Below, piece after piece: positions 1,342 to 15,865 of a stretch of DNA of 64,000 bases; positions within the stretch are counted from its first letter, which is position 1; every line of letters starts with the position of its first letter. The DNA lies in IMG/VR virus record IMGVR_UViG_3300027759_000075, positions 10,333-74,332 of that record; one strand, given 5' to 3'. A model generated the notes under the pieces. The model had not been told where the DNA came from. It saw only the letters and a program-made list of their open reading frames with translations, and made no database searches. The translations under genes and the position numbers were made by a program. The DNA is from a virus.

Positions 1342-1371
1342 AAAAAAAAGCTCCGGTTGACGGAGCTTTTT
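1342..1371. terminator. Rho-independent terminator after the phasin-like gene
   Basis: AAAAAAAAGCTCCG-GTTGA-CGGAGCTTTTT inverted repeat with A/T tails on both sides. Confidence 0.85.
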
Positions 1372-1386
1372 ATGCGTTACAACCGA

Positions 1387-1653
1387 TTACTTAGCTACTT
1401 TATCTTTGGCTACTTTAGCAAAAGACTTGGTAAACTCTTCAGTCTGAGTTTTAACAATAGCTGTAATAGACTCAAATGCTGCCAATTGAGCACGAACAAA
1501 ATCAGTAGTGTCGGCTGTTAATGCAACCAAAGTCTTGCTGAGTTCTTTTGGTTCTACATAGCACAAGATAGCCTGTGTGTTCTTTTCAGCTTGATCAATG
1601 AACTTGACTGGGTTTAACGCTTCTTTGAATGTTTCAAAATTAAATTGTTGCAT
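1387..1653 (-). CDS. Phasin-like small amphipathic helical protein (88 aa)
   Basis: ATG at 1653 with AAGGAG SD; Ala/Lys/Thr/Glu-rich all-helical pattern (FVRAQLAAFESITAIVKTQTEEFTKSFAK) like PHA-granule phasins; family call unverified. Confidence 0.45.
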   Translation of the reverse strand: MQQFNFETFKEALNPVKFIDQAEKNTQAILCYVEPKELSKTLVALTADTTDFVRAQLAAFESITAIVKTQTEEFTKSFAKVAKDKVAK

Positions 1654-1710
1654 GGTAAATCTCCTTGTTGGACAATTTGTAGGACCCTCACAAACCCAAC
1701 TATTTGGCAT

Positions 1711-1766
1711 TTGCTGTCCTGCAATATTATTTATCTATTATGTGCGGTTGCAACATTTTTTGCAAC
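1711..1766. promoter_or_regulatory. TGC-Nn-GCA inverted boxes around a TAAATA promoter (candidate PhaR-type operator)
   Basis: TTGCtgtcctGCAA (1711-1724), TGCggttGCA (1743-1752), GTTGCAA..TTGCAAC (1747-1766); TAAATA on - strand near 1730. Confidence 0.35.
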
Positions 1767-1785
1767 CTTTTTGGTAAAATTGAGG

Positions 1786-1853
1786 TAAATAAAGGTGTAG
1801 TTCGCGATACGGACATATCCAACTACTCTAACAGTTTATAAGGAACTATCAGC
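1786..1853 (+). promoter_or_regulatory. Late promoter plus two-hairpin leader of the endonuclease gene
   Basis: TAAATA 1786-1791; GTAGTT..GATA..TATC..AACTAC hairpin 1797-1826; AGTT-tataagg-AACT hairpin enclosing the SD. Confidence 0.5.
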
Positions 1854-2318
1854 ATGACTCATATTTATAAATCCACAAAGACACTACCATATGTTTATAT
1901 GTGTCAGGAAAAAAATAGCCCATATTTCTACATTGGATATCGTTGGGCTAACTATAACCCATCAACAGAAGATTTTGGTAAAAAATATTTTACCTCAAAT
2001 AAGTATGTAAAGGAAAATTTTGATAATTTTGAACATACAATTATAGCTGAATTTTACACAAAAGAGGATGCGTATGCATTTGAATCACAGCTCATAAAAG
2101 AAACCAGATCCGATTATCAAATAAACTATCTAAAATCTAAAAAAATTATAGGCACTTTTTATCCAAGGCCTAAAATTAAAATTAACAGCGAAGAGAAAAT
2201 ATGTGCGTTACCAGGTTGCGGAAAGATTCATACTAATTGGCGCATGAAATGTTGCTGTAAATCACACCATTATGCTTACGCTGGCATGAAAGCGCATCAG
2301 ACTACTTCCGAAGTGTAG
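1854..2318 (+). CDS. GIY-YIG (Seg-like) free-standing homing endonuclease
   Basis: YVY...FYIGYR...YFTS...AFESQLI pattern; Cys/His-rich C-terminus; AT-rich and opposite in orientation to its neighbours. Confidence 0.75.
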   Translation: MTHIYKSTKTLPYVYMCQEKNSPYFYIGYRWANYNPSTEDFGKKYFTSNKYVKENFDNFEHTIIAEFYTKEDAYAFESQLIKETRSDYQINYLKSKKIIGTFYPRPKIKINSEEKICALPGCGKIHTNWRMKCCCKSHHYAYAGMKAHQTTSEV

Positions 2319-3009
2319 CCAAACCTACAGATTTTAAAATACAAATATACATCCAACCAATATCAAATTCCCACCATTTGGTACTGAATCTAGGACTGGC
2401 ACCATCTGCGTGGTGATTATTATGAAGTTCTTCGCCGCCAATCCAAACAGCCAATGGCCATAGGTTGCGTGATGTATCTTTGGTATCTGTATTTCGATAT
2501 CCCCACCAATGACTAAGGCCGTTAATAACTCCAGCCGCCCACAGTGGAATCCATAGCATCTGTACACCCCAAACTAGCCATCCCCATAGACCAAATAAAC
2601 ACAGATCTATAATTAACATAAGCAGAATACCTAACGTATTATATTTTTTGTATAAATGACGCTCAATCCAATCGTTAGGAGTGCCTGTGCTTAATTGTGA
2701 GATCATTATGCGATCTTTGGCCGCTTGTTTGTAAAGAAATACACCGCCAAACAGCACACGCCAAATTCCATAGATTTGTGGACTATGTGGATCACCGGGT
2801 TGATCTGACTTTTGATGGTGTTTTCTGTGTACTGCGACCCATTCTTCGGTGACCATTGCTGTGGTCAGATACAACCAGGCTCGCATGGCATGTTCTACCA
2901 CCGGGTGGAATGTAACTCCTCTGTGTGCTTGACTACGGTGTAGGTAAAGGGTAACACAGGCTATGGTGATTTGAACCATCACCAAGGTTGATAAGATTAT
3001 ATACATCAT
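2302..3009 (-). CDS. desA: Membrane fatty-acid (delta-9-type) desaturase
   Basis: Three His boxes HRSQAH, HRKHH and HNNHH; GEELHNNHH and WWEFDIGW motifs; hydrophobic segments. Confidence 0.9.
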   Translation of the reverse strand: MMYIILSTLVMVQITIACVTLYLHRSQAHRGVTFHPVVEHAMRAWLYLTTAMVTEEWVAVHRKHHQKSDQPGDPHSPQIYGIWRVLFGGVFLYKQAAKDRIMISQLSTGTPNDWIERHLYKKYNTLGILLMLIIDLCLFGLWGWLVWGVQMLWIPLWAAGVINGLSHWWGYRNTDTKDTSRNLWPLAVWIGGEELHNNHHADGASPRFSTKWWEFDIGWMYICILKSVGLATLRK

Positions 3010-3013
3010 TTAC

Positions 3014-3571
3014 TTATCCGTACATCTCTTGGTATAAAAACTGGCTATTTTGTAAAAATGTATGGTAAACATTGCGTTGTTTGATGCCGACCTCGGAAGC
3101 AACGGTAGCCCAGCTTGGAGGATCTAAGTGCATGTTTACTTCACTGTCGCCCAAGATACTACGTGGCAATAGGCCATGTTTTTGGCACAAATGTTGTATG
3201 GGTTTGTTCCAGCCAAGACAATGCATGAACAACTCACTGTAGTTACGGTTGCGGGCCCAAACTATGGCTTCTTCTAACATGGCATTGCCAATACCCTGGT
3301 TGCGATGATCCGCATGAACAATTATACCAAACTCCACTGTGGTCGTGTTAATTTTGGCAATGTGAACAGTTCCTAGCCAACCAGCACAATTTTTTGCCAC
3401 TAAAATTTCGTGTTGGGTTGGCTCGGCTTCTATACGTTCTATCAAGCGTTCTATTAGGCCCGTACCGCTGGCCACACCAAAATACAGTTGTTGAGTGTCA
3501 ACGTCCTGGGCGTTTAGCCAATCTCCGTATCGATAACGATCCGTTTTAGCTAGGAATTCTGTGGTGAACAT
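3014..3571 (-). CDS. GNAT-family N-acetyltransferase
   Basis: Acetyl-CoA motif A (VHADHRNQGIG) and N..IQHLCQKHG motif B. Confidence 0.85.
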   Translation of the reverse strand: MFTTEFLAKTDRYRYGDWLNAQDVDTQQLYFGVASGTGLIERLIERIEAEPTQHEILVAKNCAGWLGTVHIAKINTTTVEFGIIVHADHRNQGIGNAMLEEAIVWARNRNYSELFMHCLGWNKPIQHLCQKHGLLPRSILGDSEVNMHLDPPSWATVASEVGIKQRNVYHTFLQNSQFLYQEMYG

Positions 3572-3575
3572 ACTA

Positions 3576-3689
3576 CTACTTATATGCGGCCTTGGCTTCG
3601 TTAAACTTGCCGTTACGGGCCAGGTGTGCAGAGTGGCTGGCTTGTTTAATGTCTTGGATTGCAGACCAAATAAATTTTAAAATTTTCAT
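3576..3689 (-). CDS. Micro-protein, 37 aa (MKILKFIWSAIQDIKQASHSAHLARNGKFNEAKAAYK)
   Basis: Read by hand; GGAG SD; packs tightly between neighbours; amphipathic N-terminal helix. Confidence 0.6.
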   Translation of the reverse strand: MKILKFIWSAIQDIKQASHSAHLARNGKFNEAKAAYK

Positions 3690-3693
3690 GACG

Positions 3694-3804
3694 TTAACTC
3701 CAGTAAATGTGTTTGCTGTTACCTAAAATCCGCGTTGCTTTTGCTTGGGCAGATATTTCCATTGCTTCAATAAATTTGTTTAATGCCTGATGAATTATTT
3801 TCAT
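3694..3804 (-). CDS. Micro-protein, 36 aa (MKIIHQALNKFIEAMEISAQAKATRILGNSKHIYWS)
   Basis: Read by hand; ATGA overlap with the upstream stop; GGAG SD. Confidence 0.6.
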   Translation of the reverse strand: MKIIHQALNKFIEAMEISAQAKATRILGNSKHIYWS

Positions 3805-3965
3805 AGTGTTCTCCCACAGATGCCACGATTCAGGTACCGCTGTGCCAAACGCTCTGCTTCGGCCACTGACTGTGGATTTTTGCCGGTAATATAAGCATCC
3901 AGTCCGGTGCTTACACTGTCTTTGATGCTGAAAAACTTTTTGAGTTTTTGTAATAGTTTTGACAT
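3801..3965 (-). CDS. Small protein, 54 aa, DUF3563-like
   Basis: ATG at 3965 with AAGGAG SD; LDAYI....QSVAEAERL..RY pattern. Confidence 0.55.
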   Translation of the reverse strand: MSKLLQKLKKFFSIKDSVSTGLDAYITGKNPQSVAEAERLAQRYLNRGICGRTL

Positions 3966-3976
3966 TGTGTGTCTCC

Positions 3977-4048
3977 TTAAATGGTAAAGATCATGAGAAT
4001 AAAAATTATAAAAAATACAATTGTTGCGTGTTTTTCTTGTTTTGACAT
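3977..4048 (-). CDS. 23-aa membrane micro-peptide (MSKQEKHATIVFFIIFILMIFTI)
   Basis: AGGA SD; first ORF after the TAAATA promoter (4079-4084) and the CTCAGT/ACTGAG hairpin; its stop overlaps the next SD. Confidence 0.5.
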   Translation of the reverse strand: MSKQEKHATIVFFIIFILMIFTI

Positions 4049-4156
4049 AGTTTATTCCTCTCAGTGTTTCTACTGAGATATTTACCTGGCAACGCAATAG
4101 ATAATATTAAAGTTTAATGATCAAAAATTACTAAATATTCAACAAGGAGAATTATT

Positions 4157-4348
4157 ATGTTAGAATTTTTTAAGAAACTTTTTGGCTCCGTGCCAGCAGA
4201 AACACCGGCACCTTACAAGGTAGAAGCACCTGTGATCAAGGTTGATGAGTTTCCGTTTCCAGAAGCTAAAGCGGTAAAGAAACCTTCGGTTAAAAAACCA
4301 GCTGTAAAAGCCAAAGCACCTCGTAAACCACGAGCTCCCAAGGCTTAA
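4157..4348 (+). CDS. Small Lys/Pro/Ala-rich (histone-H1-like tail) protein
   Basis: TAAATA plus AAGGAG SD; amphipathic start MLEFFKKLFG; tail AVKKPSVKKPAVKAKAPRKPRAPKA. Confidence 0.7.
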   Translation: MLEFFKKLFGSVPAETPAPYKVEAPVIKVDEFPFPEAKAVKKPSVKKPAVKAKAPRKPRAPKA

Positions 4349-4647
4349 TGTTGTACAAAGTATCGTATCAACCCAACAACATCAATAACAACCAGGAACA
4401 CGGAGTTGGCCATTAGGCCAAAACTCCTTCTGGTATAACAGGCCCAGGCACTGGCACAACAGCCTACAATAAAAATTGTATAAAGCGGTACCACCGGAAT
4501 CGCAGGTACTGTGGCCGCAAATATCACAGCCGACGTCACACTGCATGCCCAGGCAAATACTTCAGCACAGAATCTAACACGATTGGATTTCCAATCTTGT
4601 CGAATATAATTCCAAAAATTGCCTGCACCAACAAAAATAAAATCCAT
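4345..4647 (-). CDS. Small multi-pass membrane protein
   Basis: 100 aa with three hydrophobic segments. Confidence 0.6.
   Translation of the reverse strand: MDFIFVGAGNFWNYIRQDWKSNRVRFCAEVFAWACSVTSAVIFAATVPAIPVVPLYTIFIVGCCASAWACYTRRSFGLMANSVFLVVIDVVGLIRYFVQH

Positions 4648-14218: not shown

Positions 14219-15865
<1,647 letters not shown>

What the first reader, a model, noticed from the sequence alone, without database searches (positions are those of the whole stretch)
1342..4348. Candidate phage module for taking over host PHA granules or storage lipids
Seen: one TAAATA promoter (4079-4084) leads a tightly coupled run of a 23-aa TM peptide, a 54-aa DUF3563-like protein, 36-aa and 37-aa amphipathic peptides, a GNAT and a desaturase. 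Past an inserted endonuclease comes a phasin-like helical protein with its own promoter and terminator. A 63-aa protein with an amphipathic head and a KKP/AKAP tail is transcribed divergently. Established: phasins coat polyhydroxyalkanoate granules, and PhaF/PhaM use Lys/Pro/Ala tails to tether granules to DNA. Inference: the phage remodels or mobilises the host carbon store, or tethers granules to phage DNA, to fuel a large burst. Three of the micro-ORFs are missing from the ORF track.
Basis: partly seen in the sequence, partly recalled or inferred. Interest (0 to 1): 0.85.

Follow-up and report, generated by a model that had tools for sequence, protein, structure and literature searches.

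The report
Phage lipid-desaturase cassette, phasin link unproven
A giant lake phage carries a conserved, jointly regulated gene cluster whose one clearly assignable enzyme is a membrane-lipid desaturase copied from proteobacteria; none of its small proteins passes a test for being a PHA-granule protein, so the carbon-store reading rests only on regulatory hints.

Summary
All the ORFs, the TAAATA box, the tight coupling, the inserted GIY-YIG gene and the terminator are real. The window is a fragment of a giant T4-like freshwater phage. Related phages keep the order p63 | p54-p37-GNAT-desaturase, then the 88-aa gene.

The desaturase is the catalytic core of a proteobacterial DesA-type enzyme (61% identity, His boxes intact, C-terminal domain missing).

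The 88-aa "phasin-like" protein is a helical hairpin from a phage-only family. It fails Pfam, NCBIfam and profile-profile tests against Phasin_2. The 54-aa protein is not detectably DUF3563. p36 is unique to this phage, and p23 recurs in one relative. A complete 344-kb relative has no phaC, phaZ, phaR or phasin gene.

p54-p37 is a translationally coupled micro-protein pair. It heads a variable slot of enzymes (desaturase, GNAT, lipase-like hydrolase, cupin).

Both promoters carry a TGC-N3/4-GCA palindrome that is rare at other TAAATA sites. The likely host lineage (GroEL 81% identical) stores PHB and has PhaR, whose operators share this core, but the commonest phage box has different spacing.

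Verdict: a lipid-remodelling accessory cassette, possibly gated by host state. PHA-granule takeover is unproven. The scan noted this module earlier on related phages.

The parts
1346..1372 (-). Intrinsic terminator of the 88-aa gene (GCUCCG stem, U8 tail)
   Evidence: -15 kcal/mol, z -3.0, 0 of 200 shuffles fold as well
1387..1653 (-).
   Evidence: About 818 clusters at 90% identity and 113 representatives at 50%, none with a Pfam domain. The AF2 model is a helical hairpin, pLDDT 76. No phasin membership.
1690..1714 (-). Covarying hairpin in the 5' leader of the 88-aa gene
   Evidence: 10-bp stem in 12 phages, none of its pairs broken; 8 of the 15 predicted pairs in the leader show compensatory changes
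1728..1765 (-). Promoter region of the 88-aa gene: TTGCAA (1760-1765), 17-nt spacer holding the palindrome TGCAACCGCA (1743-1752), CATAAT (1737-1742), TAAATA (1728-1733)
   Evidence: a box is present in 12 of 14 type A relatives at this promoter
1854..2318 (+). GIY-YIG homing endonuclease inserted between the desaturase and the 88-aa gene
   Evidence: Pfam GIY-YIG 26.6 bits and PHROG 314; absent at this spot in relatives
2302..3009 (-). DesA-type membrane acyl-lipid desaturase, catalytic core only (235 aa)
   Evidence: NF049918 392 bits over positions 9-241 of 385. Pfam FA_desaturase 55 bits. 61% identity to a bacterial 402-aa DesA. His boxes HRSQAH, HRKHH and HNNHH present.
3014..3571 (-). 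GNAT acetyltransferase, substrate unknown
   Evidence: Pfam Acetyltransf_1 46 bits; conserved in type A relatives
3576..3689 (-). p37 micro-protein, widely conserved
   Evidence: 35 variants in the loci; 1052 clusters in metagenomes; follows p54 in 34 of 38 p54-seeded loci
3694..3804 (-). p36 micro-ORF, found only in this window; status uncertain
   Evidence: no homologue in any relative; not significantly like p37
3801..3965 (-). p54 micro-protein, first conserved gene of the operon
   Evidence: family present in both phage architectures; DUF3563 not detected; hhalign probability 17%
3977..4048 (-). p23 hydrophobic micro-ORF in the leader
   Evidence: one positional look-alike of 23 aa in L018; absent from most relatives
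4059..4078 (-). Conserved leader hairpin (CUCAGUAGAAACACUGAG) directly after the promoter
   Evidence: -8.5 kcal/mol, z -3.4; conserved in type A and type B phages
4079..4096 (-). Operon promoter: TAAATA (4079-4084) with an imperfect palindrome TGCGTTGCC (4088-4096) just upstream
   Evidence: At this promoter class, 38 strict and 12 relaxed boxes in 83 unique sequences, against about 2% at other TAAATA sites.
4132..4137 (+). TAAATA box 20 nt upstream of the p63 start
4157..4348 (+). p63: conserved N-terminal motif (MLxFxKKxFG ... PYKVE) followed by a variable Lys/Pro/Ala-rich disordered tail
   Evidence: 14 variants in type A relatives; virus-only clusters and Atlas model pLDDT 0.29; no Pfam hit

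Best explanation
This is a conserved accessory cassette of a clade of giant T4-like freshwater phages, and its assignable chemistry acts on membrane lipids.

The enzyme: a DesA-type oxygen-dependent acyl-lipid desaturase. It was taken from proteobacteria and trimmed to its catalytic core. It is co-transcribed with a GNAT behind two translationally coupled micro-proteins, p54 and p37.

Proposed action (inferred): during infection the desaturase puts cis double bonds into host phospholipid acyl chains. This keeps the membrane fluid for phage assembly and lysis, as was shown for cyanophage desaturases.

The slot: in relatives, the p54-p37 pair heads a variable slot of cargo genes that includes lipid-active enzymes (desaturase, GNAT, lipase-like hydrolase, cupin).

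The 88-aa protein: a separately transcribed, probably abundant helical hairpin protein. Its role is unknown; a surface-active partner is a guess.

Co-regulation: both units share a palindromic operator in the spacer of a sigma70-like promoter that sits just upstream of the late TAAATA box. They are therefore probably switched together by one DNA-binding protein, possibly a host regulator that reports physiological state.

Shown here: gene identities, conserved linkage and the shared operator. Inferred: desaturase activity, the timing of expression, and the roles of the small proteins.
For: - Desaturase identity: NF049918 392 bits, Pfam FA_desaturase 55 bits, 61% identity to a bacterial DesA, all His boxes present, aligned to solved acyl-CoA desaturases.
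- 503 relatives of the desaturase in viral contigs.
- Synteny p63 | p54-p37-GNAT-desaturase-88aa in about 14 distinct type A phages. A second arrangement has the desaturase convergent with p54-p37 (plus the 88-aa family or a hydrolase) in more than 50 loci.
- A lipase-like alpha/beta hydrolase occupies the same slot in relatives.
- Precedent: cyanophage desaturases are Delta9 lipid desaturases (PMC5776448).
- Shared operator: a strict box at 46% of p54 promoters and 53% of 88-aa promoters, against about 2% at other TAAATA sites in the same loci. Its distance to TAAATA is fixed at 11-12 nt.
- RNA-library contigs match 3765-4055 and 3105-3331 exactly.
- The candidate host lineage has its own 408-aa DesA, 55-56% identical, so the phage copy adds to an activity the host already has.
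Against: - Half of the p54-p37 loci lack the desaturase (19 of 38 have it). The small proteins therefore do not depend on it, and adjacency may partly reflect a shared insertion hot spot.
- No function is assignable to p54, p37, the 88-aa protein, p63 or the GNAT substrate.
- The phage enzyme lacks the roughly 150-aa C-terminal domain of cellular DesA and scores just under the NCBIfam cut-off (392 against 400).
- Activity is untested.
- The RNA evidence comes from contigs in RNA libraries and does not exclude carried-over DNA.
Confidence: 0.55

Rival explanations
1. PHA-granule takeover. The 88-aa protein is a functional phasin analogue that coats host PHB granules. p63 tethers granules or membranes to DNA through its basic tail. 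Host PhaR gates the cassette, so it is expressed when the host holds PHB, which the phage then mobilises.
For: - Phage GroEL is 81% identical to that of two 1.7-1.9 Mb Pseudomonadota genomes. These encode PhaR and 3-4 phasins.
- Their phaP and phaR promoters, and those of other Burkholderiales, carry TGC-N3-GCA boxes. This matches the published PhaR palindrome YTKNTGCRNYGCANMAR (PMC12849132).
- Phage promoters of both units carry TGC-N3/4-GCA, in some relatives with a TGT flank.
- The nearest named Atlas clusters to the 88-aa protein are Phasin_2, PHB_acc and PHA_synth_III_E, at scores of 0.82-0.85, which the tool rates as leads only.
- Sub-threshold phasin hits exist for some family members.
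- PhaP structure 5ip0 aligns at Z 6.7.
Against: - No phasin profile hit for the window protein.
- hhalign probability against Phasin_2 is 1-4%, even with a 118-sequence family profile.
- The sub-threshold hits fall on different parts of the phasin profile in different members.
- The 5ip0 match is tied with hundreds of generic helical hairpins: 505 chains score Z>=5.
- No PhaC_N, Esterase_PHB, Phasin_2 or PHB_acc_N in the five phage genomes searched, one of them 100% complete.
- 34 of 38 operon boxes have N4 spacing, whereas every box seen at the sampled bacterial phaP/phaR promoters is N3. This window's own boxes are N4 (88-aa gene) and a mismatched N3 (operon).
- p63 has no phasin domain and is predicted to be disordered.
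Confidence: 0.13
2. A hot spot of unrelated accessory genes. p54-p37 and the 88-aa gene are conserved phage genes with a function unrelated to lipids (for example regulation, anti-defence or virion assembly). They sit next to a variable region where morons such as the desaturase, GNAT, hydrolase, cupin and homing endonucleases come and go. The shared palindrome is then part of a phage-specific promoter class.
For: - Only 19 of 38 p54-seeded loci have the desaturase and only 9 have the 88-aa family.
- The slot content varies.
- Homing endonucleases have inserted at several points of the locus.
- The small proteins have no detectable relatives outside phages.
Against: - The desaturase stays next to p54-p37 in two different gene orders and orientations.
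- The cargo in the slot repeatedly includes lipid-active enzymes.
- The operator box is specific to these two promoter classes, at about 50% against 2%.
Confidence: 0.25

Closest known systems
Cyanophage-encoded lipid desaturases (vFADs; Roitman et al. 2017, PMC5776448)
   Same: A phage-borne membrane fatty-acid desaturase carried as an auxiliary metabolic gene. It is widespread in aquatic viral metagenomes and is proposed to adjust host membrane fluidity.
   Different: This enzyme is of the proteobacterial DesA type, not the cyanobacterial type. It sits in giant freshwater T4-like phages with a probable Burkholderiales host. It has no match in the isolate-phage collection. It travels with conserved micro-proteins, a GNAT and an operator-bearing promoter.
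Bacterial DesA-family desaturase (NCBIfam NF049918; Pseudomonas aeruginosa DesA is the phospholipid Delta9-desaturase of this type, stated from my own knowledge)
   Same: 55-62% identity over the whole catalytic core, with the same His boxes.
   Different: The phage protein has 235 aa against about 400. It lacks about 20 N-terminal residues and the roughly 150-aa C-terminal helical domain. None of the phage small proteins replaces that domain.
PhaR-phaP repression circuit of PHB-storing Burkholderiales (Ralstonia eutropha, PMC12849132)
   Same: Palindromic TGC...GCA boxes overlapping promoter elements of a small helical-protein gene. The candidate host lineage has this circuit.
   Different: The commonest phage box has a 4-nt spacer, the bacterial boxes sampled a 3-nt spacer. 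The box lies in the -35/-10 spacer, not upstream of -35 or at the transcription start site. The regulated protein is not a detectable phasin. No binding was tested.
PhaF / PhaM granule-to-nucleoid tethers (from my own knowledge)
   Same: p63 has a Lys/Pro/Ala-rich basic tail.
   Different: p63 is 63 aa, has no phasin or PhaM domain, is predicted to be disordered, and belongs to virus-only clusters.

Membership tests
DesA-family / FA_desaturase (PF00487, NF049918) | Profile match above the curated cut-off | tested here: met
   Pfam 55.3 bits against a cut-off of 29.7. The NCBIfam equivalog scores 392.1 against 400, just below, because only positions 9-241 of 385 are present.
DesA-family / FA_desaturase (PF00487, NF049918) | Three His boxes (HxxxxH, HxxHH, HxxHH) plus NxxxH | tested here: met
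   HRSQAH, HRKHH, NGLSH and HNNHH are present and align to acyl-CoA desaturase structures 4zyo and 4ymk.
DesA-family / FA_desaturase (PF00487, NF049918) | Full-length architecture with the C-terminal helical domain | tested here: not met
   235 aa against 390-410 aa in 70 of 80 bacterial loci.
Phasin_2 (PF09361 / TIGR01841) | Profile match above the curated cut-off | tested here: not met
   No hit at E<=1 for the window protein and none in the contig at E<=10. The best family members reach 15 bits against a cut-off of 24.9-30.2, on inconsistent profile regions.
Phasin_2 (PF09361 / TIGR01841) | Profile-profile similarity to a phasin alignment | tested here: not met
   hhalign probability 0.9%, 1.4% and 4.3% with profiles of 11, 15 and 118 sequences.
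Phasin_2 (PF09361 / TIGR01841) | Phasin-like fold | tested here: inconclusive
   PhaP 5ip0 aligns at Z 6.7, rmsd 2.9 over 75 residues, at rank 21 among 505 chains with Z>=5. Foldseek found nothing at E<=0.001.
Phasin_2 (PF09361 / TIGR01841) | Binding to PHA granules | not testable with these tools
   Needs localisation or binding assays.
DUF3563 (PF12086) | Profile match | tested here: not met
   No hit at E<=10 for 7 family members or in 5 phage records. Bona fide members were found in Burkholderiales controls.
DUF3563 (PF12086) | Profile-profile similarity | tested here: inconclusive
   hhalign probability 17% over 29 columns in the expected register, the (D/E)AYL...LE motif.
GNAT (PF00583) | Profile match above the cut-off | tested here: met
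   46 bits against 20.7.
GIY-YIG homing endonuclease (PF01541) | Profile match, and presence/absence polymorphism among relatives | tested here: met
   26.6 bits against 22.6; absent at this site in all relatives.
PhaR operator | Palindrome with TGC-N3-GCA core (YTKNTGCRNYGCANMAR) | tested here: inconclusive
   Window: N4 at the 88-aa promoter, and N3 with one core mismatch at the operon promoter. Relatives: N3 in 6 of 9 strict 88-aa boxes but N4 in 34 of 38 operon boxes. Every box at the sampled bacterial phaP/phaR promoters is N3.
PhaF/PhaM-type tether | Phasin or PhaM granule-binding domain joined to a basic repeat tail | tested here: not met
   Only the tail is present; no Pfam domain; predicted disordered.

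The most novel reading that the evidence does not exclude
A giant phage reads its host's PHB carbon-store status through the host repressor PhaR. Operators at two phage promoters are freed when PhaR is drawn onto granules. The phage then deploys a non-homologous phasin analogue (the 88-aa protein) together with lipid-modifying enzymes, to exploit or adapt to carbon-loaded, nutrient-limited cells.
Probability: 0.15. Interest if true: 0.85.

Novelty: new variant of a known kind. Interest (0 to 1): 0.5.

Why it matters
Phage-borne desaturases were previously shown for marine cyanophages. This finding adds a very abundant DesA-type version in giant freshwater phages: 503 viral contigs carry a relative.

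It also shows that the desaturase travels with two micro-proteins that have more than a thousand metagenomic variants and no annotation, and with an operator that marks a small phage regulon.

That gives concrete, testable candidates for three things: small-protein partners of a membrane desaturase, a regulated accessory cassette in T4-like phages, and possibly phage sensing of host physiological state. It also removes an attractive but unsupported phasin annotation.

Tried and rejected
- **Split-gene idea.** I asked whether the 88-aa protein or p54 derives from the missing C-terminal domain of DesA. hhalign probability was 0.2%. Rejected.
- **Insect-allergen (Bla g 1-type) lipid-binding repeat.** Three long repeat proteins surfaced in the representative search. 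Each domain scored only 11-16 bits. hhalign gave 65% with the narrow profile but 3.8% with the wide one. Rejected as an artefact of summing over repeats.
- **Small proteins next to bacterial desA.** No p37, p54 or 88-aa homologues lie near desA in 79 bacterial loci. The only hit, L090, is a short phage-like contig binned into a Bacteroidetes MAG.
- **Isolate phage collection.** No match for the DNA, the desaturase or the 88-aa protein.
- **Foldseek and PDB sequence searches** with the 88-aa family found nothing informative.
- **p36 as a diverged copy of p37.** Not supported; probability 2%.
- **Sigma54 or MotA-box readings of the palindrome.** Rejected on spacing, by inspection.
- **Host desA promoters** carry no TGC-N3-GCA box.
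- **RNA runs.** Only short contigs were found. Parts of the stretch without cover carry no weight.
- **Technical failures.** A p37 alignment could not be used to scan viral contigs because it has no conserved stretch. One search failed because the query was too short.


Full report
**Context.** The window is part of a 74-kb IMG/VR viral contig that CheckV rates 22% complete. Relatives reach 317-356 kb, and one is a complete 344-kb genome with terminal repeats. Neighbouring genes include UvdE, ribonucleotide reductase and GroEL. Near-identical DNA occurs in several freshwater metagenomes from different studies. No isolate phage in the collection matches.

**Observation.** Every ORF in the finding exists at the stated coordinates.
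- The minus-strand run p23, p54, p36, p37, GNAT, desaturase is tightly packed. There is one ATGA overlap and three 4-nt gaps, and the p23 stop lies inside the p54 Shine-Dalgarno sequence.
- TAAATA lies at 4079-4084 (minus strand). Further TAAATA boxes precede the 88-aa gene (1728-1733), p63 (4132-4137) and the GIY-YIG gene.
- The motif is strongly enriched in non-coding DNA: 22 of 51 sites lie in the 5% of the window that is non-coding.
- The terminator after the 88-aa gene is real.

**Gene identities.**
- Desaturase (2302-3009): it matches NCBIfam "DesA family fatty acid desaturase" at 392 bits, but only over positions 9-241 of 385. It is 61% identical to a 402-aa bacterial DesA across its whole length. 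It keeps all the His boxes that align to solved acyl-CoA desaturases.
- Cellular relatives are 55-62% identical and belong to Legionellales, Alcaligenaceae and Burkholderiaceae. Nearly all are 390-410 aa. The phage enzyme is therefore a trimmed catalytic core.
- 3014-3571 is a GNAT with no assignable substrate.
- 1854-2318 is a GIY-YIG homing endonuclease that relatives lack at this site.

**Synteny.** The desaturase has 503 relatives in viral contigs. Two architectures recur.
- Type A, including this window: p63 divergent, then (p54) p37, GNAT, desaturase, then the 88-aa gene. The flanks hold a 100-aa membrane protein, UvdE and g242.
- Type B: the desaturase is convergent with an operon p54, p37, then either a member of the 88-aa family or a lipase-like alpha/beta hydrolase.

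Searching from the other side, I seeded on p54. Of 38 loci with enough flank, 34 have p37, 19 have the desaturase and 9 have the 88-aa family. One desaturase-free locus has a cupin and the hydrolase in the slot. So p54-p37 is a near-obligate, translationally coupled pair at the head of a variable enzyme slot, and the desaturase is a frequent but not obligatory occupant. p37 alone has 1052 clusters at 90% identity in metagenomes, all unannotated. p36 occurs only in this window. p23 has one positional look-alike, in L018.

**The "phasin-like" protein.** The 88-aa family is abundant: about 818 clusters at 90% identity and 113 representatives at 50%.
- The near-length homologues retrieved are short proteins and none carries a Pfam domain; the Atlas places the family in virus-only clusters.
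- AlphaFold gives a helical hairpin with pLDDT 76.
- No phasin profile matches the window protein.
- I built a Phasin_2 alignment from phasins found in five proteobacterial genomes. Against it, hhalign gives 0.9-4.3% probability, even with a 118-sequence family profile.
- A few family members give 15-bit sub-threshold phasin hits, but on different parts of the profile.
- PhaP (5ip0) aligns structurally at Z 6.7, tied with hundreds of generic hairpins.
- The protein-language-model atlas places Phasin_2, PHB_acc and PHA_synth_III_E clusters nearest among named clusters, at scores of 0.82-0.85. The tool itself rates such scores as leads only.

My reading: the protein has the composition and shape of a surface-active helical protein, but it is not a demonstrable phasin.

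**DUF3563 and p63.** No DUF3563 hit was found for the p54 family. Against true DUF3563 proteins fetched from Burkholderiales, hhalign gives 17% in the expected register, which is a motif-level resemblance only. p63 has a conserved N-terminal motif and a variable basic tail. It is virus-only and predicted to be disordered. It shares only its tail composition with PhaF/PhaM.

**PHA genes.** PhaC_N, Esterase_PHB, Phasin_2 and PHB_acc_N are not found in five phage records, including the complete genome.

**Regulation.** This part followed a lead from earlier scan notes on related phages.
- Both units carry a TGC-N3/4-GCA palindrome 11-12 nt upstream of TAAATA. It lies inside the 17-nt spacer of a sigma70-like promoter.
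- A strict box is present at 38 of 83 p54 promoters and 9 of 17 88-aa promoters. At other TAAATA sites in the same loci it is present at about 2%.
- In this window, 1 of 51 TAAATA sites has a strict box. The complete 344-kb genome has 5.
- The operon transcript begins with a conserved hairpin.
- The 88-aa leader has a 10-bp hairpin with compensatory changes and no broken pairs in 12 phages.

The two units therefore form one small regulon.

**Host and PhaR.**
- Phage GroEL is 81% identical to GroEL of two 1.7-1.9 Mb Pseudomonadota genomes and 77% identical to that of Pandoraea.
- Those two genomes encode PhaR, 3-4 phasins and their own 408-aa DesA.
- Their phaP and phaR promoters, and those of other Burkholderiales, carry TGC-N3-GCA boxes. 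This fits the published R. eutropha PhaR palindrome (PMC12849132).
- Such boxes occur at 0.5 per kb in background bacterial DNA.
- This makes PhaR control conceivable. Against it, 34 of 38 operon boxes have a 4-nt spacer, and this window's two boxes are N4 and a mismatched N3.
- The phages encode no PhaR of their own.

**Expression.** Lake metatranscriptome libraries contain contigs identical to 3765-4055 (p54 and p23) and 3105-3331 (GNAT), and a diverged contig over the 88-aa gene. This is a weak hint of transcription.

**Conclusion.** The module is real, conserved and co-regulated. Its demonstrable content is a DesA-type lipid desaturase with a GNAT, behind a widespread micro-protein pair. 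This makes it a new variant of the phage desaturase auxiliary gene known from cyanophages (PMC5776448). The PHA-granule reading fails its protein-level tests and survives only as a regulatory hypothesis of modest probability. The scan had already noted the same module and the PhaR-like boxes on related phage DNA.

Noticed in passing
L091:3941-5149 and other bacterial desA loci (L091-L169): The roughly 150-aa C-terminal domain of cellular DesA proteins, which the phage enzyme lacks, matches Pfam DDE_Tnp_ISL3 (transposase) at E 1.5e-7. The match covers a conserved W..W-C..A..SG...L..F motif.
   Followed up: partly
window 1690-1714 (minus strand) and the 88-aa leaders of 11 relatives: A 10-bp hairpin in the 5' UTR of the 88-aa gene shows compensatory base changes and no broken pairs. 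It may be a translational operator or a stabiliser.
   Followed up: partly
L050:7126-7701, L205:5765-6340: A 191-aa alpha/beta hydrolase with a GHSLGG elbow is weakly similar to Burkholderia/Pseudomonas family I.2 lipases. In type B phages it occupies the slot after p54-p37, sometimes preceded by a cupin.
   Followed up: partly
window 1854-2318; L086 and L015 p63/operon spacers; L018 and L009 desaturase/88-aa spacers: Homing-endonuclease-type insertions or enlarged spacers occur at several different junctions of this locus in different phages, which suggests an insertion hot spot.
   Followed up: no
L090 (2.7-kb contig of a 'Bacteroidetes' MAG): This contig carries p54, p37 and the 235-aa phage-type desaturase (66% identity). 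It is probably phage DNA mis-binned into a bacterial MAG.
   Followed up: partly
window 14219-15856: The phage GroEL is 81% identical to GroEL of two small (1.7-1.9 Mb) Pseudomonadota genomes. This points to a streamlined freshwater host, probably Burkholderiales.
   Followed up: partly
L205:6842-7054: A 70-aa protein with a signal-peptide-like head and a Lys/Pro/Ala-rich tail lies at the end of the type B slot. Basic K/P/A tails recur in small proteins of these phages.
   Followed up: no
window 4345-4647: A 100-aa multi-pass membrane protein is always adjacent and convergent to p63 in type A relatives (41-88% identity). No family could be assigned.
   Followed up: no
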